Of a DNA stretch of 64,000 bases, positions 1 through 53,173 are shown one piece after another (position 1 is the first letter of the stretch; each line of letters starts with the position of its first letter). Source of the stretch: a phage. The stretch lies in sequence record PZ445453.1. One strand, written 5' to 3'. The notes below the pieces were generated by a model. That model saw only the letters and a list, made by a program, of their open reading frames with translations, was not told the origin of the DNA and ran no database searches. The position numbers were made by a program, and so were the translations under genes.

Positions 1-200
1 TCATTACTAAGCTAAATATAATCTATCTAACCTTTAAAACTATAACTATAATCTATCGAATTGTTGCACAAAGTAACTATTAAATTGTTAGTAACATTAC
101 TAAATAATTAATATCCTATCTATTTATGATCTAATCTTTACCTTCCTATCTATTACCTAAATAACCATTTCATACAGAAATCATTTCATACAATAACTAT
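1..200. repeat. AT-rich leader with short direct repeats (CTATCT x4-5; CATTTCATACA x2)
   Basis: Motifs read at ~24-36, 49-61, 113-126, 142-156 and 165-198; no ORF. Confidence 0.5.
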
Positions 201-259
201 AACAAGAAATATAATTAGCAAGCGTATCATTAGCAGCCTATGCCGGACACATAGGCGGC

Positions 260-400
260 TAATAATAACGCAACTACACACCCCACATAATAACCATCAC
301 CGATAGTTATTATTTGTGCTTATGTAGCTTGCAACAATTGCAAGCGCAACAATATACATGGTATATTGTATCCCTTACATTGTTGCGGTGCGTTATTATT
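260..400. repeat. inverted-repeat / palindrome cluster
   Basis: TAATAATAACGCAAC (260-274) vs GTTGCGGTGCGTTATTATT (382-400); internal palindromes TTGCAACAATTGCAA and CAATATAC-ATG-GTATATTG. Confidence 0.5.
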
Positions 401-704
401 AGCTAATATTTGGAACATTGGCTATAATATAAGCTACATATAATAAGCTATTCAATAATAAACATCGTGAACAATGACATTGATGATCATAATGCGCCAC
501 CTTCCAGGGGACGCTATGTGAACACAAAGAAATCTTTCTTGTCAAGAAAAATATCACCATTATTGCGCAAAATTATTTATATCTGAATAGATGGTTTTTC
601 ATACTATTGCCCCATATAACCTATCATTTGTTGAGCCTATTCTCTTAAAAGCGCAATAAATCAGAATTATCTTGATTTTTAGGTAGTTTTATAGTATAGA
701 AAAT

Positions 705-913
705 ATGCAAATGATAATCATTATCAGCTATCTTCCACGGGTGGCACTATTTCACGCCAGATCATTTCATTTGGCAAGGTGTAGATAGATGTTTAGACTT
801 GCCAAGCCATTGATTTACTTAGAATTTATCTGTTTTGTTGTGAGTAGTACCTTTCTTGCTCAGAAAATAATCAAAAGTCTTATAAGTCATTGAATGATAA
901 TGCAAATGATAAT
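705..913. repeat. 14-bp direct repeat ATGCAAATGATAAT (705-718 and 900-913)
   Basis: Exact repeat read in sequence; both copies next to ATGATAAT-like half repeats. Confidence 0.55.
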
Positions 914-1042
914 AATTCTCATTGATATTTGAGGGGGACGGTCGGCAGAAATCGGGGGGCGCTGAAAATCGCGTTAAGCACCTCTCGCAAGCGAGCAGTA
1001 TTTTGCGGCAAGTTATTGATATTATTGGCTTTACGCTTATGA

Positions 1043-1131
1043 AAAGGGGTGTGTCGAAATAAATCGGGTATACCGGAAAATTTTTGTGGTATAGATATTT
1101 ATTTGTCTATATTATGTACAAAGGGGTGTGT
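1043..1131. repeat. direct repeat AAAGGGGTGTGT (1043-1054 and 1120-1131)
   Basis: Exact 12-mer twice, each followed by (C/T)(G/A)AAA(A)TAA, just upstream of the first ORF. Confidence 0.5.
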
Positions 1132-1224
1132 TAAAAATAATAGGTATATATAGAATAATTGATAGGGAAATCCTATACTAATTCCTCCATTAATGATGTT
1201 TCTATGTTACTGTCCTTGTAATAG

Positions 1225-1647
1225 ATGAAAAGACGCTATATGATGTGTGGCATGAAACGTAAATTTATAAAGGAGTCTGATATGTGTGTTCCTCTTAGCA
1301 GTCCACTGCTGTTAGAATTTTACAAAGCATGGATGGAAGATCATTCCTCAATGCATCGTGAGAATGTTGGTTTGTGTAATTGCCTTATGGATTACCTGGC
1401 AACCACTATGTCAAAGAAAAAACCTACGGAAGAAGATATAGAATATTTCAAGATGGTTCGTAGCAAAACGCTGGAAGAGATGAAACTGCAATTCACGTGT
1501 GCTGGGCTATCCTCCTTCCTACCCTTTAATTATGATCTTCTGTGTTATGAAGATGAAGGTAAGACACATTCTTGCCATACCAACCCAAAGAGATTGCAGT
1601 GGGTGAAAGATAGAATCGAAGATGCAAATAATGCTTGCATTGAATAG
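1225..1647 (+). CDS. hypothetical protein, paralog family A member 1
   Basis: 140-aa ORF; shares LLxFY...GLCxCL...PFN...KRxxWVxDR pattern with 3575..3943 and 4567..5151. Confidence 0.55.
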   Translation: MKRRYMMCGMKRKFIKESDMCVPLSSPLLLEFYKAWMEDHSSMHRENVGLCNCLMDYLATTMSKKKPTEEDIEYFKMVRSKTLEEMKLQFTCAGLSSFLPFNYDLLCYEDEGKTHSCHTNPKRLQWVKDRIEDANNACIE

Positions 1648-1717
1648 AAATGTCTGTACACTGTGTTCCATAAGATATGCAATATCGCGCATAACAAACT
1701 ACTAATGAGAGGTGTAA

Positions 1718-2176
1718 ATGAAAACTGTATCTTTGTATCTTGCTAACACGGAGCGTGTACATAATCTTGTAAAAGAATGCGGTGTGAGTGTTCAATTTAA
1801 CATAGGAAAGCCTTCCGTGGTGACAGGCAGTGAGATGTGTGTTATTGATTTCCTCAATGAATATTTTCGTGGAAAACCTATTGCTCGTCACTTCATTCAA
1901 GAAATGCGAGATGTTCTACAGGATTATGAATTCTACCCAGAAATTTGTGAACGCTATGAAACGATTCTTAGTTCTGTAGAAGATCCAGATACTAGTGAAA
2001 CAGGTGCTTCCCACTTGCTGTGGATGTTGAATGAAATTCAGGATGGGTGTAATGGTATGTCTGAAACCAAACGCCATCGTTGGCTAGGCTATATTCAGGG
2101 TGTTATGGTTATGAAAAACCTTATTACAGTGAATGATGAACGTAACGCTACACGCCCCGTCTTTAATGGAGCATAA
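1718..2176 (+). CDS. hypothetical protein
   Basis: 152-aa ORF in co-directional packed block. Confidence 0.55.
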   Translation: MKTVSLYLANTERVHNLVKECGVSVQFNIGKPSVVTGSEMCVIDFLNEYFRGKPIARHFIQEMRDVLQDYEFYPEICERYETILSSVEDPDTSETGASHLLWMLNEIQDGCNGMSETKRHRWLGYIQGVMVMKNLITVNDERNATRPVFNGA

Positions 2177-2177
2177 C

Positions 2178-2393
2178 ATGAAAAGCATTAGGGTGTGTAT
2201 TGAAAATAATTGTGGCTATCTGGGGTTGACACACGTTGCTTTCCCTCTTATATTGGATGCCGATATAGCTTACAGCGGAGTTGCTTATGTGTCATTCAAG
2301 ACAATGAGCCAAGTACCTGGCTGGAATTGGGAAGTAGTTGATGTTGTTGAAGGAGAAGACTATGTTTTCCTTCCACACGAATATACTGTTTAA
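2178..2393 (+). CDS. hypothetical protein
   Basis: ORF trimmed to ATG at 2178 (GGAG 6 nt upstream, directly after upstream stop). Confidence 0.45.
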   Translation: MKSIRVCIENNCGYLGLTHVAFPLILDADIAYSGVAYVSFKTMSQVPGWNWEVVDVVEGEDYVFLPHEYTV

Positions 2394-2408
2394 AGAGAGG
2401 AAAAGAAG

Positions 2409-2591
2409 ATGGATAAACAAACTACCGTGTACTTAGTAACAAAGAATACCCTAGACTGGAACCAATGCAGCACTGTCCCTTACAAGATCTGTGCAACATT
2501 AGAACTAGCACAACGTGCAGAAGCAGAAGTGGATGCCATGCAAATGCAACACAGCTATGGTGAAATCATTCCTTTTACTATTGAACAATAA
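2409..2591 (+). CDS. hypothetical protein
   Basis: 60-aa ORF, RBS-like AGAGG upstream. Confidence 0.45.
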   Translation: MDKQTTVYLVTKNTLDWNQCSTVPYKICATLELAQRAEAEVDAMQMQHSYGEIIPFTIEQ

Positions 2592-2602
2592 GGATTTGTG
2601 TA

Positions 2603-3055
2603 ATGTTTGAAATTGGTAAAGTGTATCGTTTTAAGAACGCATCTTATATCCGTAAGTTTGCTAATGTGTCTGAGTGCAATAGCAGGATTGCTTCTTTCTT
2701 AGGTGATTCCTGTTTTCGTGTATTAGATGTGGATGACTGGTATGGTGTCACTTCTTTGCAATCCTTAGCAGGAGAGCAAGAAATTATCACTCAAAATGAA
2801 GGAGACTTTGTTCTGTGTTACACCTTGCTTGCAGAAGCTGAGTTTGAATACTTTGTAGAAGTATTAGAAGAAGCACCAAAAAGTAAGCATGAAGAGAAAT
2901 ACCTGCTTGTAGTGGATGGAGTTCCAATTGTGGAAACCATCTCCCGTGAGGAAGTTGAAAAAGAGGCAAAACGTTACAAGCTGGATCGTACACAGAGTGT
3001 AGTTGAAGTCTATTCTCTTGTTGGTGTTGCAGATGTTCATGTGAACATTGTATAA
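2603..3055 (+). CDS. hypothetical protein
   Basis: 150-aa ORF. Confidence 0.55.
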   Translation: MFEIGKVYRFKNASYIRKFANVSECNSRIASFLGDSCFRVLDVDDWYGVTSLQSLAGEQEIITQNEGDFVLCYTLLAEAEFEYFVEVLEEAPKSKHEEKYLLVVDGVPIVETISREEVEKEAKRYKLDRTQSVVEVYSLVGVADVHVNIV

Positions 3056-3269
3056 TATGTGTAATGATAGATACATTCTTCGTGTATCTGATAAGTCTCC
3101 TATGTTTGACTGGCGGGGCTGGTGGCTACTAGCTCCGATGCAAGGTCTGACAGACGTGGAAAAGGAGGCTTATGTGTATACAAAAGAAGAGATAGAAGAT
3201 AGCCTTTATTTGACAGATAACATTAAGAATGGTATCTTTGAGTGTAAATTGAAAGGAGAGGAAGAATGA
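3048..3269 (+). CDS. hypothetical protein
   Basis: 73-aa ORF, short overlap with upstream gene. Confidence 0.45.
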   Translation: MYNMCNDRYILRVSDKSPMFDWRGWWLLAPMQGLTDVEKEAYVYTKEEIEDSLYLTDNIKNGIFECKLKGEEE

Positions 3270-3565
3270 CTGTTACAGAAAAACTGCGTTGTATTGCAAA
3301 GCAAAGTGGAGAAGGTTTGTGGTTTCCTATTGATGAAGTTATTCAGGACTGTTACGATCAGGCTAAAACTGGCAAATACTCCAAAGCATTTAAACCATCT
3401 GTTTTCGGTTTGGATGACTATCCGACAAATGAACAAGCAAGGAAACGCCAAGTTGATTTGATTGATCTTGCTATGGAAGCACTACGGGAGCGTGGACTTA
3501 GTAAGGTGTATGCTTTAAACACCAAAGAGGGTTTTGTAGATTCAGTGATCGTAGACTGGCATTAA
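3266..3565 (+). CDS. hypothetical protein
   Basis: 99-aa ORF, ATGA-type overlap with upstream stop. Confidence 0.5.
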   Translation: MTVTEKLRCIAKQSGEGLWFPIDEVIQDCYDQAKTGKYSKAFKPSVFGLDDYPTNEQARKRQVDLIDLAMEALRERGLSKVYALNTKEGFVDSVIVDWH

Positions 3566-3574
3566 GGAGCAGCC

Positions 3575-3943
3575 ATGCAAGAGAATAATAAAGTGTGTAA
3601 CATGAAAAGCAGCCCCTATTTGCTACAATTTTATGAGTGGTGGTTGGAACAAGAAGATACAAACTTTAGCAAAAAGCACTATGGTCTTTGCACGTGTCTT
3701 GTAGACTTCTTATACAACATTGCTTGGATAAAAGATGTTGAAAATGTATCAAAACTCCAATCCTCTGTACGAGAGGAAATGAAGGAACAGTTTAAGAAAG
3801 CGGGTTTGAACCATTTACATCCATTTAATACAGATTTCTCACATTACTTTACAGAAACAGAGTTAGGCATTGCACACCTTAACAAAGAACGTGTACAATG
3901 GGTGATTGATCGTATTCGTGATATGGAGGAATACAATGGTTAA
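3575..3943 (+). CDS. hypothetical protein, paralog family A member 2
   Basis: 122-aa ORF; family A motifs (LLQFYEWW, GLCTCL, HPFN, ERVQWVIDRI). Confidence 0.55.
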   Translation: MQENNKVCNMKSSPYLLQFYEWWLEQEDTNFSKKHYGLCTCLVDFLYNIAWIKDVENVSKLQSSVREEMKEQFKKAGLNHLHPFNTDFSHYFTETELGIAHLNKERVQWVIDRIRDMEEYNG

Positions 3944-4154
3944 GTTTAAAATTTTCTGTGCAATTACTGTTTGTCTTATTCTTGCATACGTATTATTCTC
4001 TAATATCATCCGTTTAGGTGAGTATATGGCAAGAGAAGCTCGTGAAAGCGAAGCTAAAAAAGAACAGTGTATTGTGTTCAAGCATCAAAGAGATGCTGAA
4101 AAGTTTCTCGCACTTGATTGCAATCGTTATGTATCTTATCAAATGTATAAGTAA
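3936..4154 (+). CDS. small membrane protein, paralog family B
   Basis: Start moved to ATG 3936 after GGAGGA; N-terminal hydrophobic helix; C-terminal KHQRDAEKFLALDCNRYVSY resembles 8648..8872. Confidence 0.45.
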   Translation: MVKFKIFCAITVCLILAYVLFSNIIRLGEYMAREARESEAKKEQCIVFKHQRDAEKFLALDCNRYVSYQMYK

Positions 4155-4163
4155 GGAGGATTT

Positions 4164-4388
4164 ATGGTAAAACGTCTGGAATGGGATGCGTGTACTGCTC
4201 ACGCTTGTCACTGCGATATTGTGGAAGATCCTAATGGAGAAATGGTGTATTATGAGGATTACGAAGCATTGCATAATGCTGTGATCGCTTTACTGGATGA
4301 TATTAGCTCTCGCTATCCAGGACAACAATTTACGTGTCCACACATTCAACTGTTAGCTAAACTTACGGAGTATCCAAGTGTTCCATAA
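4164..4388 (+). CDS. hypothetical protein
   Basis: 74-aa ORF with GGAGGA RBS. Confidence 0.5.
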   Translation: MVKRLEWDACTAHACHCDIVEDPNGEMVYYEDYEALHNAVIALLDDISSRYPGQQFTCPHIQLLAKLTEYPSVP

Positions 4389-4389
4389 T

Positions 4390-4557
4390 ATGGGTGTCCC
4401 TGAACAACTCCTCTTTATTGTAGGACTAGTAGGCTTATTGGCGGCTGGCGCTAAAGCCGCTTCTCACACGCATCACATAATGTTAAGATTTCTATTCCTG
4501 CTCCCTTCTATCCTCGTGTTATTAGTCATACTGATCGATAATATTTTGCACAATTAA
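4390..4557 (+). CDS. small hydrophobic protein (sub-threshold ORF)
   Basis: 55-aa ORF not in supplied track; two hydrophobic stretches; fills intergenic gap. Confidence 0.3.
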   Translation: MGVPEQLLFIVGLVGLLAAGAKAASHTHHIMLRFLFLLPSILVLLVILIDNILHN

Positions 4558-4566
4558 GGAGAGGTT

Positions 4567-5151
4567 ATGAGTAAAATTATACCAAGCAGTTATGAATTAT
4601 TACAGTTTTATGTATATTATATAGACTGGGTTACTAGATCAAATGTTAAAGACAATGCGATGTTTAGTAAAAACATCTGTTTAACAGAAAGTATCTTCCG
4701 TTACTGGCACACAGGCAGAAAGTGTACACACAGTGAAGCTATGCGCATTGTAGGTGAATACCTAGAGCAATTGCAAAAAGCAGAACTTCCTGTCCTTCAC
4801 CCATTCAATGAATCTAAAGAAGAATTAGAACAAGAGTGTAGGGAAGGTAAATGCCATTTGAATGAAAAACGTATTGAATGGGTAAGGCAACGTTTAGCCG
4901 ATGCAGGAAAGTCTCCTAGTGACTCTGACTATACGTGGTACGATGTAGAGGGTTTAGTTCAAGGTTTTGAGGCTTGTGCTATAAATAATACCAACTTTGC
5001 CAAAGTTTTATGCGAGGTTTATGACCTGGCAGATAAAATCCGAAATCAAGGATGGAAACAAGAGCATAAAGAATCATATGAACGCCTTGACAAGATTTTC
5101 AAACAGATCTATTCTAACCACAAAGAGATGTTCCAAATGGAGGATGTGTAA
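4567..5151 (+). CDS. hypothetical protein, paralog family A member 3
   Basis: 194-aa ORF; family A motifs (LLQFY, ICLTE, HPFN, EKRIEWVRQRL). Confidence 0.55.
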   Translation: MSKIIPSSYELLQFYVYYIDWVTRSNVKDNAMFSKNICLTESIFRYWHTGRKCTHSEAMRIVGEYLEQLQKAELPVLHPFNESKEELEQECREGKCHLNEKRIEWVRQRLADAGKSPSDSDYTWYDVEGLVQGFEACAINNTNFAKVLCEVYDLADKIRNQGWKQEHKESYERLDKIFKQIYSNHKEMFQMEDV

Positions 5152-5837
5152 TGAAAGAGATTATGTTTGAAGGGCATCGTTACGAAGTTCCAGACAATGC
5201 AAATTTCATGGCTCGTGATATCACTGGGGATGTGTTCTGGTTTGAAGATGAACCTGTGTTTTCTTCGAACAAACACTGGTTTTCACAACAATCTTCTTCG
5301 GAAAATATGACTTTTGGCTACGTAGAGCCTAAAGTACGTTGCAAAGCAGCTTCTTCTTTGGTAAAAATTTCTCAAGATGATCAAGAAAATACTCAAGATG
5401 TTGTTAGTGCACTACTGAAGTACATTGCAGAACTTGAGAAGAAAGTTAAAGAAGCAGAAACTAAAGTGAAAGCACGATCAGCAATCATCGAAACTATGTC
5501 TGAACGTATTTTAGAACTGGAAGATTTGTGTGGAGAGGCTTATCAAGTGGTTGGTGCACTGGCTTGTGAAGCAGAAATGTTTGAAACTTCAGAACAAGTT
5601 TCACATATGTTAGATAATTTAAGTGAATGTAAAATGATTCATGATGATGTATTGCCATTTTGTTGCAATGTTAACAAAACAGAGCAAACAGAAGATTCAG
5701 AAACAGTTTATGTTCCGCTGATGTGTGTTCCAGATCATCTAAAAGGTGTATTCTCTTGTAAATGGTCACTGTTGAGCGTTACCAACTGTGGTGAAAACTA
5801 TTCTGCTAACATTGAATTGCTAAAACACGTTAAATAA
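5151..5837 (+). CDS. hypothetical protein
   Basis: 228-aa ORF; central predicted coiled coil. Confidence 0.55.
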   Translation: MKEIMFEGHRYEVPDNANFMARDITGDVFWFEDEPVFSSNKHWFSQQSSSENMTFGYVEPKVRCKAASSLVKISQDDQENTQDVVSALLKYIAELEKKVKEAETKVKARSAIIETMSERILELEDLCGEAYQVVGALACEAEMFETSEQVSHMLDNLSECKMIHDDVLPFCCNVNKTEQTEDSETVYVPLMCVPDHLKGVFSCKWSLLSVTNCGENYSANIELLKHVK

Positions 5838-5847
5838 GGAGAGTAAG

Positions 5848-6252
5848 ATGTGGTCTGTTAAAATCAAATATAATGCACAGTATTATGGTGGACAACCTTA
5901 TGAAGTTGTTATTTGTGACTGTATCTCTAAAGAAGTTGCACAGCTTTGTGGCGCTGGCGTTAGTGAAGCTATGAACAAAATGCATAACTCGACTGTGCGT
6001 TACCTGGATCAAGATATTCCAGAAGATGTAAATGACTATGCTTACGAAGTTATTTACAGTGAAGGTAAGAAGCTCTCTATTGAAGATGCACTTAAAGCAC
6101 TACCTGCTATGTGCAGCCCAACACCAGAAGCAGTTAAAGAGATTTTACCAGAATCCAACCCCGATGAATATGCCTCTATGGTTGCTTCAGATATGTGGAA
6201 TCTCTGTCGAGAAACTATGATTAAAAATCTTGTGGAAATGGCGCATGAGTAA
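5848..6252 (+). CDS. hypothetical protein
   Basis: 134-aa ORF. Confidence 0.55.
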   Translation: MWSVKIKYNAQYYGGQPYEVVICDCISKEVAQLCGAGVSEAMNKMHNSTVRYLDQDIPEDVNDYAYEVIYSEGKKLSIEDALKALPAMCSPTPEAVKEILPESNPDEYASMVASDMWNLCRETMIKNLVEMAHE

Positions 6253-6463
6253 AACACACTTTATACATCCGTTTGATCCAAAGAACAAGGCTGTTATACA
6301 CCGCCGTTGGACTGAAACGCGCATTACGAAATGTCCTGTGCCAGCAGCACAGGAATATAACAAAACATATAAAGCAGAATTTGTGGAGTACACCTTTATA
6401 AATAACAAAGGGAAGGAGGTTTATGTTCCAGAATACTGCCTTTGGATAAAATGGGAGGAATAA
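6245..6463 (+). CDS. hypothetical protein
   Basis: ORF trimmed to ATG 6245 overlapping upstream stop. Confidence 0.4.
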   Translation: MSKTHFIHPFDPKNKAVIHRRWTETRITKCPVPAAQEYNKTYKAEFVEYTFINNKGKEVYVPEYCLWIKWEE

Positions 6464-6630
6464 TGCAAACATTTTTTATCGACAAGTTCAATAAAAATAT
6501 GAACACGTGGATGGCAACATTCACTATGCAATTTGCGTCGTTTAAAGAAGCTCAAGAATGGTGCGATCAACACAAGGATTTTGATTTTTACTATCAAATC
6601 AATCTGAATCTCTCTCCAGAGGAGAAATAA
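6463..6630 (+). CDS. hypothetical protein
   Basis: ORF trimmed to ATG 6463 after GGGAGG. Confidence 0.4.
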   Translation: MQTFFIDKFNKNMNTWMATFTMQFASFKEAQEWCDQHKDFDFYYQINLNLSPEEK

Positions 6631-6631
6631 T

Positions 6632-6976
6632 ATGTTGGCTGATATTGAAATCCTTATGTACCGACAAGGTATGATCAAAATGTGGCTGGACTCTTTTAGC
6701 AACATATACAGCACAGTGCGATCAGCAGAGGAGCGTAAAACGCTTATTTTATCTGCTATTGTTGATAAACAACGTTTCTTCAAAGAAGTTTTGCAAACAG
6801 GCTTCTCCGATGCAGGAGTAGAGATTGCAACTCTTAGTCTTGGGGTGCTGTCTTACTTGGAGTCCGTTGTTTTATATGTCTTCTCTTTAGAAGAAGACTT
6901 GCAATTTGAAGCATTAAAACTTATCTTAGATGCTGCAATTGACATAGAACAAAATCGAATTGATTCTTTTGAATAA
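6632..6976 (+). CDS. hypothetical protein
   Basis: 114-aa ORF. Confidence 0.5.
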   Translation: MLADIEILMYRQGMIKMWLDSFSNIYSTVRSAEERKTLILSAIVDKQRFFKEVLQTGFSDAGVEIATLSLGVLSYLESVVLYVFSLEEDLQFEALKLILDAAIDIEQNRIDSFE

Positions 6977-6992
6977 AAATAAGGAGAAAACT

Positions 6993-7451
6993 ATGCAAGA
7001 GGTTAAACATTATCCACATGGTCGTAGTTTTGTAGCTGTATGGCATGTTCCTGCTCGTAATGAACTGTTTTGTGCATCTTTTCATTACAAAGATGGACAA
7101 TATTTCACCTATGACGAGACGATGGATGATTTTATCCCAGAGTGCGATCATGGGTATACACCAATGTTCTTTAAACGTATGAAAGCTCGTTTCTTCGTTA
7201 CAGATGTTGATGGTGAACCTACTTGGCACATCGAAGAAGATTGGCAAGATTCTGTGGATATTAAAGAAGCCCCAGAATGGGCTACACTACTGGTACACGT
7301 GAAAACCCCTACCCTTGACATTATGGCGTGGGTTAATCATGATGATACCCATTACCAATACATAAACAGTAGCACAGAGATTTCTGGTGAGATTATTGGT
7401 CGTTGGAAGCCTACGAATCAGGTTGCTATTGTCGGATATAAGGCAGTATAA
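6993..7451 (+). CDS. hypothetical protein
   Basis: Start at ATG 6993 after AAGGAG. Confidence 0.5.
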   Translation: MQEVKHYPHGRSFVAVWHVPARNELFCASFHYKDGQYFTYDETMDDFIPECDHGYTPMFFKRMKARFFVTDVDGEPTWHIEEDWQDSVDIKEAPEWATLLVHVKTPTLDIMAWVNHDDTHYQYINSSTEISGEIIGRWKPTNQVAIVGYKAV

Positions 7452-7452
7452 T

Positions 7453-7647
7453 ATGAAAAGTAGCGTAGATTGGGATGATTTATCCGCTTTTGAAAAATGG
7501 TTCTTAGGTAGTGGTTGTTATGCAGATGGGGATCTCGAAAGAGATCCTTCTGGAAACTACATTATGCCATTAACCCAAGGTTTTTATGAGTGCTGGTGCG
7601 CAGCACAAAACAACGTACTGAATAAGGAGACAACACAATGCAATTAA
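7453..7647 (+). CDS. hypothetical protein
   Basis: ORF trimmed to ATG 7453 directly after upstream stop. Confidence 0.4.
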   Translation: MKSSVDWDDLSAFEKWFLGSGCYADGDLERDPSGNYIMPLTQGFYECWCAAQNNVLNKETTQCN

Positions 7648-7877
7648 ACATCGGACAACCAATTTTTGATGCAGATACTGGTCAATATGCAGTGATTGTT
7701 GCTCGTATGAGCGGTGATGACTTTATTGTTTCAGAACTACTGGAATCAGATCCGCAACTGCGTGTGGTTTGTGACCTATATCTTCGAGACGAAAGTGATC
7801 GCATTGCACTGAAAGAAGATGGTATGCTTTACTACACCTGGACTAGAGATCCTGGTGTAAAGGAGGTAGAGGTATAA
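7638..7877 (+). CDS. hypothetical protein
   Basis: 79-aa ORF with AAGGAG RBS. Confidence 0.5.
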   Translation: MQLNIGQPIFDADTGQYAVIVARMSGDDFIVSELLESDPQLRVVCDLYLRDESDRIALKEDGMLYYTWTRDPGVKEVEV

Positions 7878-8176
7878 TGGTAAGGAATAGGGGTTTACAT
7901 AAAAGAAGACACCTTACTTACTGGCATCGCAAAGTACATGAACCTGTATCAAAGAAAGAATGGCAATACCTGCCTTATGGAAAGGAGCGAAGGAAGTATT
8001 TGTTAGCTCATTTAAGAGTACATGGTTCGCTTCCTGTTAACAGTAAGTGGCAATTGCAAACAGTTTATGACGAAGATATGAAATATCTGTTAAAGAGAGG
8101 CATTATTTGCCTTGTTAAGATAGGACGATGGAAATCTCGTCAATCTTATATCGTACTTAAACAGGAGAAACCATGA
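7877..8176 (+). CDS. hypothetical basic protein
   Basis: 99-aa ORF, Lys/Arg-rich. Confidence 0.5.
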   Translation: MVRNRGLHKRRHLTYWHRKVHEPVSKKEWQYLPYGKERRKYLLAHLRVHGSLPVNSKWQLQTVYDEDMKYLLKRGIICLVKIGRWKSRQSYIVLKQEKP

Positions 8177-8424
8177 ATATCAAAGATGTTGTAGCATATG
8201 TAGAAGATGAAGTTAAAAACCATACAAGTTTACTGAAAGTAATGGTTGTGGTTAAAAATGGCATTGGACAAGTAAACGTACAACATGTCTTATCTGATAC
8301 TGTATATAATGTGTTTGAATGTAAAGACACACCTCATGGAGTACGTGTGGTGTATATTGATAACAATTTCAAAGAATGTGTGAGACATACCTTAGAAAAT
8401 GAACTAAGGATCACAATCTTATGA
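8173..8424 (+). CDS. hypothetical protein
   Basis: 83-aa ORF, ATGA overlap. Confidence 0.5.
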   Translation: MNIKDVVAYVEDEVKNHTSLLKVMVVVKNGIGQVNVQHVLSDTVYNVFECKDTPHGVRVVYIDNNFKECVRHTLENELRITIL

Positions 8425-8594
8425 GTTATTATGTTGTACCCTATGCCAATAAGTGGAGAGTAAGAGAAACTTGTTTTCTATTCTCCTGGTGGGCTACGTT
8501 CGGAGATGGTTGTGGAAATGATACAGGGAAGCCTGTAGAGTATGACACAAAAGAAGAATGTGAACAGTGGATAAAATTAACACAAAGATGTTGA
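8421..8594 (+). CDS. small Cys-containing protein (sub-threshold ORF)
   Basis: 57-aa ORF not in supplied track; ATGA overlap with upstream gene. Confidence 0.3.
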   Translation: MSYYVVPYANKWRVRETCFLFSWWATFGDGCGNDTGKPVEYDTKEECEQWIKLTQRC

Positions 8595-8647
8595 CACGAT
8601 CTTAACTTCTTGTTAGTATCAATATGTACTAACGATAAGGAGGGTTT

Positions 8648-8872
8648 ATGAAGTCTGTAAACAAGTTGCAACAATTTTTGTTATCAACAGCAATCTTTTT
8701 GCTTTTGTTAATTGGTATTCTGTATGGTGCATCTAACTTATACAATCTACACAACAATGTAGAACATAATATAGAGAAGTGCACCATCCTAAAACACAAT
8801 AAACAAGCAGAAGATTTCTTAAAGAATAAGTGTTACAATTACATTGATTATGAGGAGACAAACAATGATTAA
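8648..8872 (+). CDS. small membrane protein, paralog family B
   Basis: N-terminal TM helix; KHNKQAEDFLKNKCYNYIDY resembles 3936..4154. Confidence 0.5.
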   Translation: MKSVNKLQQFLLSTAIFLLLLIGILYGASNLYNLHNNVEHNIEKCTILKHNKQAEDFLKNKCYNYIDYEETNND

Positions 8873-9107
8873 ACAATTAGGGATGCGAGTATACAGTGAG
8901 TGGACTCCAAGCAATGGCCCAGGAGTTGTTGCAGCTAAATGTATCAATGGTCGTATTGAGTACCTGGAAGGTTATGAAGATAATGAAGAGTTAGTAGATT
9001 ATGCTAAATCTTTTATTGAAGATGATACAGACTTTATTGTATTGTATGATACAGGAGAGTTAGAGTATGGATATGATGGAGATGGGGATATCTTTGAACT
9101 TCAATAA
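8865..9107 (+). CDS. hypothetical acidic protein
   Basis: ORF trimmed to ATG 8865 after GAGGAG. Confidence 0.45.
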   Translation: MIKQLGMRVYSEWTPSNGPGVVAAKCINGRIEYLEGYEDNEELVDYAKSFIEDDTDFIVLYDTGELEYGYDGDGDIFELQ

Positions 9108-9125
9108 GAGTAGTAAGTAAGATAT

Positions 9126-9174
9126 AAAGAGTATATAGTTAGTTATAGAGTTAGTAACATTACATATACTCTTT
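9126..9174. repeat. intergenic inverted repeat (AAAGAGTATAT ... ATATACTCTTT)
   Basis: 11-bp arms read at 9126-9136 and 9164-9174. Confidence 0.5.
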
Positions 9175-9314
9175 CCATGTATAACATGGAATATTCTCTA
9201 CCTCGCTATCGCTCGGTATATAAGATTAGGGTAGCATGTTTTTTACGAAAAGTAAAACTGTTTGTACCGATTGATAGCAGGTTTTTAATAGATTTTATCT
9301 ATGAGGAGTAGAAA

Positions 9315-9533
9315 GTGTACAAATTATATAAAGCAAAAGATAAGTTTACGGGTAATACATCTGGTTTCTATGTAACACCACGAGGTGTTGCTGTATTTGA
9401 TTGGATCTCTGGTACTCCAGATCGTGAAATGATCTCTCTTGTAAAACTGTCAGAACAAGAGTACACTTACGGTGACATTACAACATTCTATTCTCGTGCA
9501 GAGAATCCAAAACTGATTGCGGAGTGGGAATAA
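9315..9533 (+). CDS. hypothetical protein (GTG start)
   Basis: 72-aa ORF, GAGGAG RBS upstream of GTG. Confidence 0.45.
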   Translation: MYKLYKAKDKFTGNTSGFYVTPRGVAVFDWISGTPDREMISLVKLSEQEYTYGDITTFYSRAENPKLIAEWE

Positions 9534-35796: not shown

Positions 35797-36759
35797 TTAA
35801 ATTCCAATAACAGTGTTTACACGCTTCTCTTTGCTACGCAAATTAACACGTCCACGAGACAGGCTATTACATGATGTGCATCTTAGCACTTGGAATGTAC
35901 TAACCGCTGTTGTGTAAACCTTACCAGGAACAACTTCAAGGTGCTCTTTACCGCAACGAGGACAACGAAGTTTTTCATCGTCATAGAATGCAGATACGTT
36001 AGGATGCTGTGGAATCCACGCACGAAGTTTGATGTAAAGATCTCTAAGAGAAACAACATCACCATCGTTGTATGTTTGCATACGGAAGAAGGCGTGTCTG
36101 TCTCCTTCACAACATGCTTTCCACAAAGGAAAACCTTCATTGTCAAGTTTAAAGTTTTCTGTATCAAAATACAAACACATTTCTTTAAGCGCATTAGAAG
36201 GTAGTGCAAACTGCTTCTTAGCTGCCTTGAGTGTATCAATTACAACATAGTGTGATGGTGGCTCCATACCGTGAAAAGCAAAACGTTGGTTAATATAAGC
36301 CTTATCAAACTTAATACCGTTGTGTGCGATCACAATATCTGCATCGTCAAGCAAGTGCCACAGATCTTGACATAATTCCCAATCATCTGTATGATCTATG
36401 TCAAACAGAGGGTAATTGCTAAGGTTCTTACCTTCTACTTCTCCTGTTTCTAAATCAGCAGATGAATAGGAGAGCAAGTAACCTCGACGAATAACTTGTT
36501 CAGGTGCAATAAAGGCTTTGAAACGTGAGAAGCTATACACAATCTCCGGTGCTGTCTCTACGTCAATAATTTTAATTACTGGCCCACCTTTATCTTGCGG
36601 AGCACCGCGATGTGGTGAATTTACACGAGCTAAGTAATCATTTACTGTGCTCTTCTTACTAGAACTTCCCAACACCTCTTGTGCAATCTTACGCGAAGAA
36701 TAACCTTGTGCTTTCATAGATACAATCAAGGCTTTCTGTTCGTCTGTTAATTTACTCAA
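35797..36759 (-). CDS. DEDD-family 3'-5' exonuclease with N-terminal HTH and C-terminal Zn-ribbon
   Basis: IIDVETAP (Exo I), IAHNGIKFD (Exo II), CPRCGK...CTSCN. Confidence 0.55.
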   Translation of the reverse strand: MSKLTDEQKALIVSMKAQGYSSRKIAQEVLGSSSKKSTVNDYLARVNSPHRGAPQDKGGPVIKIIDVETAPEIVYSFSRFKAFIAPEQVIRRGYLLSYSSADLETGEVEGKNLSNYPLFDIDHTDDWELCQDLWHLLDDADIVIAHNGIKFDKAYINQRFAFHGMEPPSHYVVIDTLKAAKKQFALPSNALKEMCLYFDTENFKLDNEGFPLWKACCEGDRHAFFRMQTYNDGDVVSLRDLYIKLRAWIPQHPNVSAFYDDEKLRCPRCGKEHLEVVPGKVYTTAVSTFQVLRCTSCNSLSRGRVNLRSKEKRVNTVIGI

Positions 36760-36880
36760 TGTTCCTCCTGCTCTGAAATATATGCTTGTAGCATACTTTC
36801 AAAAGTTGTTTCATCATTCGCCCAACGTTTCATATATACCAACTGAAAAATTGTCTCTATCCATTCGTCAGTTGTCATCT

Positions 36881-37873
36881 CTACTTCTTCACCATCCCAA
36901 GAAGTAAATTTAACGCCATCTGGGAACCATCATAATACTGATCTTTAACTGTCTGAAAAAGTTCAGCCTGTGTTTTACATTTGGAAATAAGATTAAAGCA
37001 AGTAATATCTCCAAACTTAACATCGAAATCTTGGTAAGGTCGAATACTATCTGTCTTATCGCCCATTAGCATTTGATAAGCTAACCAGTAACTACCCCAG
37101 CCCTTAATTTCTTTTTTCTTACCTTTTTCTACGATCCAGATATCGCCGATAGATTCATCAATCAGAATAATACAAGGATTTTTATAAACACCATCCTCTT
37201 TATAAAAGTTAAAGAGTAAACTCGGTGTGTGCAAGCTATCTTTGTCGATAGATGCTACAATATGAGAAAACTTACCAGTTTCCTTGTAGGCTTTATACCC
37301 TGCATATCCATAGATTTCTAAAGCATCATCTGCCTCAATACCAGTAACAACGTCACCGTTATGTTTTTCAACTAGATAATCTTTAGTATCTGATAAATGG
37401 ATTGGTCTTAAATCTGATCGTTCTGATTTATATTCTTTTGGCATTTTGAAAGAATGCCGGAAGGTTTTTCCTACCCCGATGACACCGCAATACTTTTGAA
37501 GTTTTAGGTGATCCATCATCTGGGTTATTTTTGTCTTTGCAGCTTGAAACGTAAAAGAAATATTGTCTGGGACTATTTGAACGTCTTTTATTTCAAAATC
37601 TTCTCTAGAGAACAACTTCTTACCAGCAGCTTCGCGTTGCGCGTTAAGTGCTCCTAGCCATCCTCCAATATTTTTTGAAGATTTACCCCAAAAATCTGTT
37701 CTTGTTTCAAACTCTTTTACATTACCGGAAGCCTTGTGTACAGCGTGGATTTTTCTTTGTTCTAAAGCTGAAGACGCTTGGAACGCCACTTGATCGTAGT
37801 CTATTGCAAGAATTGTGTTCTCGTCAACATATTTGTGCAGGTCTTCCGGTTGGATTAAAATGTAGCCGCTAAT
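36881..37873 (-). CDS. T4-type RNase H / 5'-3' flap endonuclease, non-canonical start
   Basis: GIEADDALEI, SIDKD, GDKTDSIRP align to T4 RNase H; conserved N-terminal block ILAIDYDQVAFQ lies upstream of the GTG used by the ORF track, so CDS extended to an in-frame ATT. Confidence 0.65.
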   Translation of the reverse strand: MSGYILIQPEDLHKYVDENTILAIDYDQVAFQASSALEQRKIHAVHKASGNVKEFETRTDFWGKSSKNIGGWLGALNAQREAAGKKLFSREDFEIKDVQIVPDNISFTFQAAKTKITQMMDHLKLQKYCGVIGVGKTFRHSFKMPKEYKSERSDLRPIHLSDTKDYLVEKHNGDVVTGIEADDALEIYGYAGYKAYKETGKFSHIVASIDKDSLHTPSLLFNFYKEDGVYKNPCIILIDESIGDIWIVEKGKKKEIKGWGSYWLAYQMLMGDKTDSIRPYQDFDVKFGDITCFNLISKCKTQAELFQTVKDQYYDGSQMALNLLLGMVKK

Positions 37874-37881
37874 ATTACCTC

Positions 37882-38094
37882 CTATTCATCATCTGAACTC
37901 TCTGTTGAGAATGTTCGTGTGTAGGGACACTGACGACTTGCAGAAACCTCTATAACCTTGTCGTACATACCGTTAGAGTAAAAACAGTATTTTGTACTTC
38001 CAGAAACTTGTTCTCCAGAATTAATTAAAGTTATTTGACCAGCATAAGAATAAGAACTGATTACTAAAAGTAAACCGACAAGAAGTTTTTTCAT
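37882..38094 (-). CDS. small secreted/lipoprotein-like protein
   Basis: MKKLLVGLLLVISSYSYAG signal-peptide-like N-terminus. Confidence 0.5.
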   Translation of the reverse strand: MKKLLVGLLLVISSYSYAGQITLINSGEQVSGSTKYCFYSNGMYDKVIEVSASRQCPYTRTFSTESSDDE

Positions 38095-38168
38095 GGTGTG
38101 TCTCCTTAAAAGCCCACCTAACTAAGTAGGTAGGCATATTAACACATATTAAATTAGTAAGTCAAGTA

Positions 38169-39074
38169 TTATTTTTGAATAGTTGACTTGATAAGGTCTT
38201 GCATAATACCACGGATTTCATTAAAGCACAGAAGGACAGATGCTTCAAAAGATCCTTCTTCATCGTTAAAGTATTTAGGGAATTTAATACCACTCAACTT
38301 AAATTCTTTATCGACAATAAAGTTAACGAAACCGTCATATTCCAGGCCAATGGCAACAACGTGCTTACCATCTTCCATAAGTTCTACTGCACGAGATTCA
38401 TAAAGGGACTCTTTACTCCATACAACCACACCTTCCGAATCTTCAAGTTTAATATAATTACCCAGGGTCAGTCGTTCAGCCTCATGTTCTTCTAAGATGG
38501 TATCAAAACCTTTAATAATGGCTTCTTCGTGTACACTAAACGGCAGAACTGGGAAAGTACCCAACACCTCACGAAGAAATACAGCAATATCTTCACTAAT
38601 TTTCTTAGAACCATTAAGAACATAGGTAATACTGTTTTCAGTGTCTACAACAACATAGTTATAGAAATCATCTGCTTCTGTTTCTGGGAGCAGAGAAAAC
38701 ACGATATCAGCCTCAATTGCTTTTTTACTTTCTTTGTCCAAGAAGAATTCTTTAGTAGGATTTGCAGCAATAAACTCTTGTTCCATCTCCTGGAGTTTTT
38801 CATTAAGAATGCGTTTAACTTTCTTCTTGTTAACTTTCTTAACAGACTGCCCTACTTTAATAACCTCTAAACCAGAGAACACTTTTACATAGGAACCATC
38901 ATCTTCAAAACGAACAAGACCAATGGTATGTGCTTGTTGCCCCTGTGCCACAACAAAATCCAGCGGTTTGTCTGTTACTGTGTTCAGTGCTGAAATAGAC
39001 AGACCATCACCAGAAATCAGGGTTACGCAAGATTTGAAATTTTTAGCAAACATAGTTTTCTCCTCAAATAACAA
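38169..39074 (-). CDS. hypothetical protein (possibly RdgC-like)
   Basis: 301-aa ORF; only weak size/composition resemblance. Confidence 0.5.
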   Translation of the reverse strand: MLFEEKTMFAKNFKSCVTLISGDGLSISALNTVTDKPLDFVVAQGQQAHTIGLVRFEDDGSYVKVFSGLEVIKVGQSVKKVNKKKVKRILNEKLQEMEQEFIAANPTKEFFLDKESKKAIEADIVFSLLPETEADDFYNYVVVDTENSITYVLNGSKKISEDIAVFLREVLGTFPVLPFSVHEEAIIKGFDTILEEHEAERLTLGNYIKLEDSEGVVVWSKESLYESRAVELMEDGKHVVAIGLEYDGFVNFIVDKEFKLSGIKFPKYFNDEEGSFEASVLLCFNEIRGIMQDLIKSTIQK

Positions 39075-50387: not shown

Positions 50388-50463
50388 GGTTCCATAGCTC
50401 ACTGACGAGAGCGCACACCTCATAAGTGTCGAGGGCAGGGATTGTAACCCTGGGGAACCACCA
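50388..50463 (+). tRNA. tRNA-Met/Ile2-type (anticodon CAT), non-canonical T-loop
   Basis: Acceptor GGTTCCA/GGGAACC, D-stem GCTC/GAGC, anticodon loop CTCATAA, T-stem CAGGG/CCCTG with loop ATTGTAA, encoded CCA. Confidence 0.5.
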
Positions 50464-53003: not shown

Positions 53004-53079
53004 TGATAGTGTGAAGCTGGCGTTTCGAGTGCTTTCATAAGGCATTGCGAGAAGAGTTCGATTCTCTTACTATCAACCA
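53004..53079 (+). tRNA. tRNA with CAT anticodon (Met or Ile2-lysidine type)
   Basis: Acceptor TGATAGT/ACTATCA, anticodon loop TTCATAA, T-arm AAGAG-TTCGATT-CTCTT, CCA. Confidence 0.55.
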
Positions 53080-53094
53080 AATTACTACAGATTG

Positions 53095-53173
53095 CGCGGG
53101 ATAGAGGAGTCTGGTCGTCCTCGCCAGTTTCATATGCTGGAGATCGTAGGTTCAAATCCTACTCCCGCCTCCA
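53095..53173 (+). tRNA. tRNA with CAT anticodon and unpaired 1:72
   Basis: Acceptor CGCGGGA/TCCCGCC with C1xC72 mismatch, D-stem GAGG/CCTC, anticodon stem CCAGT/GCTGG loop TTCATAT, T-arm GTAGG-TTCAAAT-CCTAC, CCA. Confidence 0.55.

What the first reader, a model, noticed from the sequence alone, without database searches (positions are those of the whole stretch)
36881..37873. T4-type RNase H gene lacks a canonical start codon for its conserved N-terminus
The ORF track starts this gene at GTG 37789, but the in-frame upstream sequence encodes ...PEDLHKYVDENTILAIDYDQV..., which aligns to the T4 RNase H N-terminal catalytic block (ICLIDFSQIALS). Between the upstream stop (37886-37888) and that block there is no ATG, GTG or TTG, only an AGGAGG RBS followed by ATT and ATA codons. 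Initiation is therefore probably at a rare codon, or there is a frameshift or sequencing error.
Basis: seen in the sequence. Interest (0 to 1): 0.5.

Follow-up and report, generated by a model that had tools for sequence, protein, structure and literature searches.

The report
Phage flap-nuclease gene starting at ATT
A phage DNA-repair/replication nuclease gene really begins 28 codons upstream of its annotated GTG, at a weak ATT start codon behind a strong ribosome-binding site, so most database entries cut off two catalytic residues; this copy also has a one-base deletion near its end.

Summary
On the minus strand an in-frame TGA (37888-37886) is followed by 32 codons with no ATG, GTG or TTG before GTG 37789.

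Those codons encode a conserved N-terminus. Asp25 and Asp27, counted from ATT 37873, are invariant in 43 homologs. An AlphaFold model (pLDDT 94.8) makes residues 21-25 a strand of a flap-endonuclease fold. GTG 37789 falls inside the next helix.

Across 26 distinct relatives, the codon 4-5 nt after GGAGG/GGGGG (one weaker, AGGAAAG) is ATT (11), ATC (10), ATA (4) or CTG (1). It is never ATG, GTG or TTG. In four relatives an in-frame TAA sits directly before it. pN/pS of the extension is 0.22. The gene therefore most likely starts at ATT 37873.

A sequencing error or frameshift at the 5' end is excluded. "T4-type" holds only at superfamily level: T5 D15, ExoIX and T4 RNase H are about equally close.

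About 100 GenBank records truncate this gene. Only ESCO13 (two records) and one other phage record cover the extension.

Separately, the window equals phage JohannJBalmer (MZ501084.1) except for a 1-nt deletion at 36930/36931. That deletion frameshifts the last 57 conserved residues.

This is a known kind of feature, like the infC and pcnB AUU starts. Interest is moderate.

The parts
36756..37873 (-). Whole flap-endonuclease-family (5'-3' exonuclease) gene as it should be read: ATT start to native TGA stop. It encodes 372 aa in relatives. In this window it is interrupted by a 1-nt deletion.
   Evidence: the relatives' frame is uninterrupted; homologs of 357-373 aa cover 94-99% of the 372-aa query. 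PHROG 107 'exonuclease', E 5e-49.
37877..37883 (-). Shine-Dalgarno sequence AGGAGGT, 3-4 nt upstream of the ATT. It overlaps the TAG stop of the upstream ORF.
   Evidence: Sequence. GGAGG or GGGGG lies 4-5 nt before the start position in 25 of 26 distinct relatives; L126 has a weaker AGGAAAG.
37871..37873 (-). ATT: proposed near-cognate initiation codon (residue 1).
   Evidence: the homologous codon is ATT 11, ATC 10, ATA 4, CTG 1 in 26 distinct versions, never ATG, GTG or TTG. Four versions have an in-frame TAA directly before it; it aligns with the ATG/GTG/TTG of the 'M-G-Y-P' sister clades; the ESCO13 RefSeq CDS starts at this ATT.
37790..37870 (-). Codons 2-28 of the N-terminal extension (SGYILIQPEDLHKYVDENTILAIDYDQ), missing from the usual annotation.
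   Evidence: pN/pS 0.22; differences by codon position 1547/1545/4130. Ser2 is kept through AGC, AGT, TCA and TCT; structured, pLDDT 87-98.
37793..37801 (-). Codons for Asp25-Tyr26-Asp27. The two Asp are invariant in the family and presumed to bind metal.
   Evidence: D25 and D27 are invariant in 40 and 43 sequences, including Pfam 5_3_exonuc_N-positive members ('LIDGD'); they lie at the end of strand 21-25 and the start of helix 26-37.
37787..37789 (-). GTG (Val29): the start used by ORF callers and nearly all GenBank records. It is not the real start.
   Evidence: annotated start; this codon is GTG in only 2 of 26 versions (otherwise ATA, ATT, ATC, GTT or GCA); it lies inside helix 26-37.
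37886..37888 (-). In-frame TGA that closes the reading frame upstream.
37882..38094 (-). Upstream 70-aa ORF with a signal-peptide-like N-terminus. Its stop lies 8 nt before the ATT, so translational coupling is possible.
   Evidence: PHROG 4641, unknown function. In relatives its stop lies 8-18 nt upstream of the start.
36930..36931 (-). Site of the 1-nt deletion (GAATGG in all relatives, GATGG here). It shifts the frame after Tyr314.
   Evidence: alignment with three relatives; it is the only difference from MZ501084.1 in 64,000 bases; the truncated product is not on record in the public gene-position collection that was searched.
36881..36883 (-). Premature TAG created by the frameshift.
36759..36929 (-). 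Displaced coding segment for the native C-terminus (Trp316-His372, 57 aa), now out of frame. The native stop TGA is at 36758-36756.
   Evidence: it contains invariant M348 and D354 and nearly invariant W316, F317, P318, G320, V321, G328, W338, I342, V346, Y347, R350 and T356.

Best explanation
The gene encodes a flap-endonuclease-family 5'-3' exonuclease of a phi92-like phage. The window is Escherichia phage JohannJBalmer, genus Justusliebigvirus.

Translation most likely starts at ATT 37873, not at the annotated GTG 37789. The 30S subunit would be placed by the strong AGGAGGT (37883-37877) 3-4 nt upstream. Initiator tRNA would then pair with the near-cognate AUU, giving a 372-aa protein in intact relatives. 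Its first 28 residues form a short strand, a helix and strand 21-25 of the nuclease core, and they carry the invariant Asp25 and Asp27.

Shown here:
- The extension is coding, conserved and structurally integral.
- The start position is held by AUU, AUC, AUA or CUG throughout the clade, behind a GGAGG/GGGGG-type motif in 25 of 26 versions.

Inferred:
- Initiation happens at this codon with fMet.
- The weak codon keeps synthesis of the nuclease low.
- Ribosomes finishing the upstream ORF 8 nt away may contribute (translational coupling).

Separately, this window's copy has a 1-nt deletion at 36930/36931. It replaces the last 58 residues, 57 of which are left encoded out of frame, with 16 unrelated ones. 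Because this is the only difference from the deposited genome in 64 kb, it is most likely an error or alteration of this sequence and not biology.
For: 1. Conserved N-terminus. D25 and D27 are invariant in 40 and 43 homologs down to 25% identity. Homologs with ATG starts carry the same block.

2. Structure. The AlphaFold2 model has pLDDT 94.8, with strand 21-25 and helix 26-37. Val29 (GTG) falls inside that helix.

4. Start codon position. In 26 distinct sequence versions from isolates, IMG/VR and metagenomes, the codon is ATT 11, ATC 10, ATA 4, CTG 1. It follows GGAGG or GGGGG by 4-5 nt in 25 of them; L126 has a weaker AGGAAAG.
- In L007, L088, L090 and L094 an in-frame TAA directly precedes it, so the frame opens exactly there.
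- 18 of 26 versions have no canonical start anywhere before D25.

5. Coding signal. pN/pS is 0.22 in the extension, against 0.33 in the next 26 codons. Third-position differences are in excess. Ser2 is kept through AGC, AGT, TCA and TCT, and Gly3 through all four GGN codons.

6. Homology of the start. Sister clades have ATG, GTG or TTG at the homologous position ('M-G-Y-P...' against 'I-(S)-G-Y-I...').

7. Published measurements. AUU, AUC, AUA and CUG are the four near-cognates that initiate measurably in E. coli, at about 1-2% of AUG (Hecht et al., bioRxiv 10.1101/063800). In an optimised initiation region AUA mRNA performed like AUG mRNA in vitro (PMC5499595).

8. Existing annotation. The ESCO13 RefSeq record already starts the CDS at this ATT.

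9. Gene specificity. In a screen of the 50 of 108 CDS with an upstream in-frame extension of at least 8 codons, compared with ESCO13, this was the only gene with a long, stop-free, conserved upstream extension that is not explained by overlap with the upstream gene.

10. Deletion.
Against: - There is no experimental N-terminus, toeprint or ribosome profile for any member.
- The spacer is short: 4 nt after AGGAGG, or 3 nt after AGGAGGT.
- Near-cognate codons gave only 0.02-3% of AUG in reporters, so an active replication nuclease would have to work at a low level or rely on the strong SD and coupling.
- Variation among ATT, ATC and ATA is also what a plain internal Ile codon would show. The argument that it is the start therefore rests on the in-frame stops just upstream and on the SD.
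- The absence of ATG among about 9 deep lineages is only suggestive of selection for weakness, roughly p 0.1 by my own rough estimate.
- I could not inspect model coordinates, so the placement of Asp25 and Asp27 in the metal site is inferred from invariance and from the known FEN architecture.
Confidence: 0.85

Rival explanations
1. The protein really starts at GTG 37789 (Val29), as annotated in nearly all GenBank records. On this view the upstream conservation is non-coding or incidental.
For: GTG is a canonical start. 47 of 48 annotated Justusliebigvirus records leave the upstream stretch unannotated (three records checked directly).
Against: - Codon 29 is GTG in only 2 of 26 distinct versions.
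- There is no SD before it; the preceding sequence is ATAGACTACGATCAA.
- D25 and D27 upstream are invariant.
- The extension has pN/pS 0.22.
- The model puts Val29 inside a helix, and this start would delete strand 21-25.
Confidence: 0.02
2. Translation starts at a different near-cognate codon inside the extension: ATT 37861, ATC 37855 or CTG 37840. The conserved Asp residues would be kept but the first residues would not be made.
For: These codons are in frame. ATC 37855 is Ile in almost all clade versions (Met in L103). In some relatives a TTG or ATG lies at or near these positions and gene callers use it (P0006, P0008, L103).
Against: - They lie 16, 22 and 37 nt from the SD, with no other SD nearby.
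- Codon 37861 is GAA, CAA or AAT in 7 clade versions, and CTG 37840 is TTA, CTA or CTT in others.
- Residues 2-4 (Ser-Gly-Tyr/Phe) are conserved through synonymous and multi-base codon changes, so they are translated.
- Residues 5-7 and 9-14 are structured in the model.
Confidence: 0.07
3. A sequencing or assembly error at 37790-37890 hides a canonical ATG or a frameshift at the 5' end.
For: This window does carry one 1-nt deletion elsewhere in the same gene, so errors in this sequence are possible.
Against: - The 5' region is identical to MZ501084.1.
- It differs by at most 2 of 78 bases from 55 other records sequenced independently.
- 26 distinct versions from isolates and metagenomes all lack a canonical start at that position.
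Confidence: 0.01
4. Ribosomes enter the nuclease frame from the upstream 70-aa ORF by frameshifting or stop-codon readthrough, making a fusion protein with no initiation of its own.
For: The upstream ORF ends 8 nt before the ATT. One database protein (P0002, 444 aa) is a fusion of the two ORFs.
Against: - The frame relation is not conserved. It is -1 in the window, and in-frame with one or two stops (TAG plus TAA) in others.
- There is no slippery site at GAUGAUGAAUAG.
- The upstream protein has a signal peptide.
- P0002 has Gln exactly where the nearly identical KP13-26 DNA has TAG. That fits a gene call made with a TAG=Gln code (my inference).
- Sister clades give the nuclease its own ATG, GTG or TTG.
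Confidence: 0.02

Closest known systems
AUU start codons of E. coli infC (IF3) and pcnB (poly(A) polymerase I)
   Same: A near-cognate AUU is used as the only start of an essential-domain-containing protein. It sits behind a Shine-Dalgarno sequence and is conserved among relatives. The expected result is low translation that is sensitive to IF3. Hecht et al. (10.1101/063800) name these as the only two confirmed non-canonical starts in E. coli.
   Different: - This is a phage gene.
- The codon drifts among AUU, AUC, AUA and CUG across the clade.
- There is no evidence of autoregulation.
- Initiation here is inferred from comparative data only.
Bacterial/phage-type flap endonucleases: T5 D15 exonuclease, E. 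coli ExoIX (Xni), Pol I 5' nuclease domain, mycobacterial FenA, plastid exonuclease 1, T4 RNase H
   Same: - Motifs FRH/YK..R, EADD, DKD and GD..D align to Taq.
- The first strand ends in an acidic residue, as in 'VDG' of Pol I-type enzymes (established knowledge of the family).
   Different: - Only 12-23% identity.
- No significant Pfam hit for the window protein; only 5 of 40 relatives reach PF02739.
- Large insertion after the first helix, at roughly residues 38-100.
- An extra conserved C-terminal segment (316-372).
- Not specifically closer to T4 RNase H than to the others.
Escherichia phage ESCO13 gp105 'putative exonuclease' (NC_047770.1 / KX552041.2)
   Same: This is the orthologous gene (77% aa identity). 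It is annotated from the homologous ATT with a ribosome-binding-site feature just upstream.
   Different: The ATT start is not discussed in the genome announcement (PMC5374246). Apart from the two ESCO13 records, no other annotated Phapecoctavirus-like record listed annotates the extension, and only 1 of 48 annotated Justusliebigvirus records does.

Membership tests
Flap endonuclease / 5'-3' exonuclease superfamily (includes T4 RNase H, T5 D15, ExoIX, Pol I 5' nuclease) | PIN-like alpha/beta fold shared with solved members | tested here: met
   [not shown]
Flap endonuclease / 5'-3' exonuclease superfamily | Conserved carboxylate clusters (E-x-D-D, D-K-D, G-D-x-x-D) plus an Asp at the end of the first strand | tested here: met
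   E180, D182, D183, D210, K211, D212, D272, D275, D25 and D27 are invariant in 43 sequences. The motifs align to Taq EADD, DKD and GDESDN. The equivalence of D25 to the first-strand Asp is inferred, because the N-terminal part was not included in the hhalign match.
Flap endonuclease / 5'-3' exonuclease superfamily | Significant match to the Pfam models 5_3_exonuc_N (PF02739) or 5_3_exonuc (PF01367) | tested here: not met
   The window protein has no hit with E below 0.069, and that hit is unrelated. Only 5 of 40 relatives hit PF02739, best E 1.6e-5. Membership therefore rests on profile-profile and fold evidence.
T4 RNase H specifically ('T4-type') | Closer to T4 RNase H than to other FEN subfamilies | tested here: not met
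   [not shown]
Flap endonuclease / 5'-3' exonuclease superfamily | 5' nuclease or flap-cleaving activity | not testable with these tools
   Needs biochemistry.
Genes with a near-cognate (AUU-class) initiation codon, as in infC and pcnB | Essential conserved protein sequence lies upstream of every canonical in-frame start | tested here: met
   No ATG, GTG or TTG lies between TGA 37888 and Asp25; this holds in 18 of 26 clade versions.
Genes with a near-cognate (AUU-class) initiation codon | A near-cognate codon at a working distance from a Shine-Dalgarno sequence, conserved in relatives | tested here: met
   AGGAGG-TAAT-ATT in the window. GGAGG or GGGGG followed by 4-5 nt and then ATT, ATC, ATA or CTG in 25 of 26 versions; L126 has a weaker AGGAAAG.
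Genes with a near-cognate (AUU-class) initiation codon | Experimentally determined N-terminus or initiation site | not testable with these tools
   No proteomic or ribosome-profiling data were found in six literature searches.
Genes with a near-cognate (AUU-class) initiation codon | IF3-dependent discrimination or regulation of expression | not testable with these tools
   Inference only.

The most novel reading that the evidence does not exclude
The weak start may be an adaptive, long-conserved translational throttle on this nuclease. On this reading the whole family avoids ATG, and the phi92/phAPEC8 clade has gone furthest, holding the start at any of the four ~1%-efficiency codons for as long as the clade has existed.

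- Near-cognates fill the start position in all 26 versions of the phi92/phAPEC8 clade.
- TTG or GTG fills it in 22 of 33 versions of the sister clades.
- About 90% of the other annotated genes of the same phage use ATG.

Expression would then depend on the strong SD, on coupling to the upstream ORF and on the state of IF3 during infection. It might also involve the phage's own initiator-like tRNA (53095-53173).
Probability: 0.3. Interest if true: 0.55.

Novelty: new member of a known kind. Interest (0 to 1): 0.35.

Why it matters
Practical value:
- The annotated products of this gene in about 100 phage genomes lack the first strand and two invariant Asp residues. They are 344, 336 or even 229 aa instead of about 372.
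- Any cloning, structure prediction or activity test based on those entries would use a dead or misfolded protein.

Conceptual value:
- This is a clean natural example of a near-cognate start kept over deep divergence and drifting among exactly the four codons that initiate at about 1% of AUG in E. coli.
- It offers a tractable phage system for asking why weak starts are kept: nuclease toxicity, coupling, or IF3 control.

For this window in particular, the 1-nt deletion means the gene as given cannot encode the conserved C-terminus. It should be treated as an error or alteration of the sequence until re-sequenced.

Tried and rejected
- A Pfam scan of the window protein gave nothing relevant.
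- A profile search of PDB sequences with the family alignment gave nothing. The link to Taq, T5 and T4 needed a Pfam-positive distant member, hhalign and fold searches.
Its residues 38-216 agree with the PDB alignment printed.
I modelled the window's own 314 in-frame residues instead.
- There is no Rfam match in 36500-38500 and no unusual RNA structure around the start (z 0.08). Promoter and terminator matches do not exceed shuffles. I therefore found no riboswitch, leader or internal promoter.
- The fusion-protein idea raised by P0002 was rejected. Its Gln sits where near-identical DNA has TAG, and other relatives have two stops.
- The mini-ORF ATGATGAATAGGAGGTAA overlapping the SD is just the Asp-Asp-Glu-stop coding of the upstream gene. 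It is absent in other subclades.
- A wider screen for other genes with conserved extensions lacking a canonical start found only this gene. It covered the 50 of 108 CDS with an upstream in-frame extension of at least 8 codons, compared with ESCO13. The other hits contain stops or overlap the upstream gene.
- Six literature searches found no paper discussing this start codon.

Full report
**1. What the window is**

Window 36000-39000 matches Escherichia phage JohannJBalmer (MZ501084.1; Stephanstirmvirinae, Justusliebigvirus, phi92-like) over its full length. The whole window equals that record read as a circle: record 90312-144831 followed by 1-9481. There are zero mismatches and a single 1-nt gap. 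The gene lies on the minus strand in a tightly packed operon. Its neighbours are an RdgC-like recombination protein, a 70-aa signal-peptide ORF, this nuclease, and a DnaQ-like 3'-5' exonuclease.

**2. The observation**

The minus strand reads TGA(37888-37886) ATA GGA GGT AAT ATT(37873) AGC GGC TAC ATT TTA ATC CAA CCG GAA GAC CTG CAC AAA TAT GTT GAC GAG AAC ACA ATT CTT GCA ATA GAC(37801) TAC GAT(37795) CAA GTG(37789).

- No ATG, GTG or TTG occurs in the 32 codons before GTG 37789.
- AGGAGG is at 37883-37878 and overlaps the TAG stop (37884-37882) of the upstream ORF.
- With this phage's codon usage, the lack of a canonical start in 32 codons has a probability of about 0.24. It is therefore not remarkable on its own.

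Its weight comes from what the stretch encodes.

**3. The stretch is coding and essential**

- A protein search returned 68 homologs. The full-length ones (357-373 aa) carry the block '..DENT...IDYDQ.AFQ'.
- In alignments of 40 and 43 sequences, Asp25 and Asp27 (numbered from ATT 37873) are invariant, along with E180, D182, D183, D210, K211, D212, D272 and D275. This includes distant members that hit Pfam 5_3_exonuc_N and start 'M..LIDGD'.
- An AlphaFold2 model of the window's own 314 in-frame residues has mean pLDDT 94.8. It shows strand 5-7, helix 9-14, strand 21-25 and helix 26-37.
- The annotated start Val29 lies inside helix 26-37. A protein starting there would lack strand 21-25 and both Asp residues.
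- Among 25 distinct DNA versions of the clade, the extension has pN/pS 0.22, against 0.33 for the next 26 codons. Differences by codon position are 1547/1545/4130.
- Ser2 is kept through AGC, AGT, TCA and TCT. Gly3 is kept through all four GGN codons.

**4. Which family**

- Foldseek against the PDB gives plastid exonuclease 1, E. coli ExoIX, T5 D15 and M. smegmatis Pol I.
- hhalign of the family against the Taq 5' nuclease gives probability 94% and E 1.3e-7, aligning FRH/YK..R, EADD, DKD and GD..DN. A Pfam-positive relative aligns to Taq at E 9e-11.
- The window protein has no significant Pfam hit. It matches PHROG 107 'exonuclease'.

It is therefore a divergent flap-endonuclease-family 5'-3' exonuclease. 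'T4-type RNase H' is correct only at superfamily level.

**5. Where translation starts**

I collected the gene's 5' region from IMG/VR, metagenomes and GenBank phages. The clade with 47-100% amino-acid identity gives 26 distinct versions.

- The codon homologous to ATT 37873 is ATT in 11, ATC in 10, ATA in 4 and CTG in 1. It is never ATG, GTG or TTG.
- It lies 4-5 nt after GGAGG or GGGGG in 25 of the 26. One version, L126, has a weaker AGGAAAG.
- In four versions (L007, L088, L090, L094) an in-frame TAA directly precedes it, so the reading frame opens exactly at that codon.
- The codon before it is not conserved (AAT, AAC, AAG, AGG, GTT, AGT, TTA, TAA).
- 18 of 26 versions have no canonical start at all before Asp25. 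The rest have sporadic ones at non-conserved places.
- Codon 29 is GTG in only 2 of 26 versions.
- In the sister clades (rV5-like and others) the homologous position carries ATG, GTG or TTG directly before 'G-Y-P'. 'M-G-Y-P' there corresponds to 'I-(S)-G-Y-I' here.
- Other near-cognates in the extension (37861, 37855, 37840) are 16-37 nt from the SD, and two of the three are not conserved.

Hecht et al. report that AUA, AUC, AUU and CUG are the four near-cognates that initiate at about 1-2% of AUG in E. coli, and that infC and pcnB (both AUU) are the only confirmed cases there (10.1101/063800). In an optimised initiation region AUA mRNA behaved like AUG mRNA in vitro, while AUU was weaker (PMC5499595).

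My conclusion is SD-directed initiation at ATT 37873. This rests on comparative evidence only; no member of the family has an experimentally mapped start.

**6. Why a weak start (inference)**

- In the sister clades the start is TTG 14, ATG 11 and GTG 8 of 33 distinct versions.
- By contrast, 97 of 108 annotated CDS in 50 kb of this phage use ATG.
- The family as a whole therefore leans to weak starts, and this clade uses the weakest usable class.
- This fits selection for low synthesis of a nuclease, but the statistics for 'never ATG' are only suggestive.
- The upstream ORF stops 8-18 nt before the start in all versions, so termination-reinitiation coupling may contribute. Reinitiation in E. 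coli needs initiator tRNA and IF2 and is lowered by IF3 (PMC2268962).
- I found no RNA structure, Rfam match or promoter or terminator signal above chance.
- I screened the 50 of 108 CDS with an upstream in-frame extension of at least 8 codons against ESCO13. This was the only gene with a long, stop-free, conserved upstream extension not explained by overlap with the upstream gene. The feature is therefore gene-specific.

**7. Is it known?**

- The ESCO13 record (KX552041.2 / NC_047770.1) starts the CDS at the homologous ATT. Its genome announcement does not mention this.
- Of 56 Justusliebigvirus records, 47 leave the extension unannotated, 1 covers it and 8 have no annotation.
- Of 60 listed Phapecoctavirus-like records, only the two ESCO13 entries cover it. 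Several annotate only a 229-aa fragment.
- Six literature searches found no discussion of this start.

I rate it a new member of a known kind, and mainly a widespread annotation error.

**8. The 3' frameshift in this window**

All relatives read ...CAG TAT TAT GAA TGG TTC CCA GAT GGC.... The window has ...TAT TAT GAT GGT..., with one A missing at 36930/36931.

- The native C-terminus Trp316-His372 is left out of frame at 36929-36759.
- That segment holds invariant M348 and D354 and many nearly invariant residues. The gene as written is probably non-functional.
- This is the only difference from MZ501084.1 in 64,000 bases. The truncated product is absent from the public gene collection that was searched.
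- It is most likely an error or alteration of this sequence, not programmed recoding.

**9. Verdict**

The gene most likely starts at ATT 37873. The feature is ordinary in kind but well supported, conserved and widely mis-annotated. The window copy also carries an unrelated 1-nt deletion near its 3' end.

Noticed in passing
window 36930-36931 (minus-strand gene 36756-37873): A single-base deletion (GAATGG to GATGG) frameshifts the nuclease after Tyr314. It is the only difference between the 64-kb window and MZ501084.1, and it is absent from every relative examined.
   Followed up: yes
window 1-64000: The window is Escherichia phage JohannJBalmer (Bas62) read across the ends of the linear record: 90312-144831 followed by 1-9481.
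   Followed up: yes
window 53095-53173 (also 50388-50463 and 53004-53079): There are three tRNA genes with anticodon CAT. The one at 53095-53173 is annotated tRNA-fMet in GenBank. Like an initiator it has an unpaired first base (C1 opposite C72), but it lacks the three G-C pairs of the anticodon stem (its pairs are C-G, C-G, A-U, G-C, U-G). I did not test whether it bears on near-cognate initiation.
   Followed up: partly
window 36756-36759: The downstream DnaQ-like 3'-5' exonuclease gene (35797-36759) starts with TTG, overlapping the nuclease stop (CATTGAGT). This is another weak start in a coupled arrangement.
   Followed up: no
sister-clade loci L020-L043 and L104-L144: In rV5-like and other relatives the same gene starts with TTG (14) or GTG (8) more often than ATG (11) among 33 distinct versions. 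In 50 kb of JohannJBalmer, 97 of 108 annotated CDS use ATG.
   Followed up: partly
protein P0002 (444 aa); compare L085 587-600: A database protein fuses the upstream 70-aa ORF to the nuclease. It has Gln where nearly identical DNA (Klebsiella phage KP13-26) has TAG. This is probably a gene call made with a TAG=Gln code, not a real fusion.
   Followed up: partly
L171 40829-41044 (ESCO13 gp278): The ESCO13 record also annotates a CDS starting with ATA just after the Rz-like spanin gene. This is another hand-set non-canonical start that I did not evaluate.
   Followed up: no
window 37882-38094: The upstream 70-aa ORF has a signal-peptide-like N-terminus and two Cys residues (PHROG 4641, unknown function). 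It is conserved immediately upstream of the nuclease throughout the clade.
   Followed up: no
GenBank MG065639, MG065645, MG065650, MG065656, MG065689: Unannotated records named 'Campylobacter phage' are about 99% identical to these E. coli phages. They may be mislabelled or contaminants.
   Followed up: no
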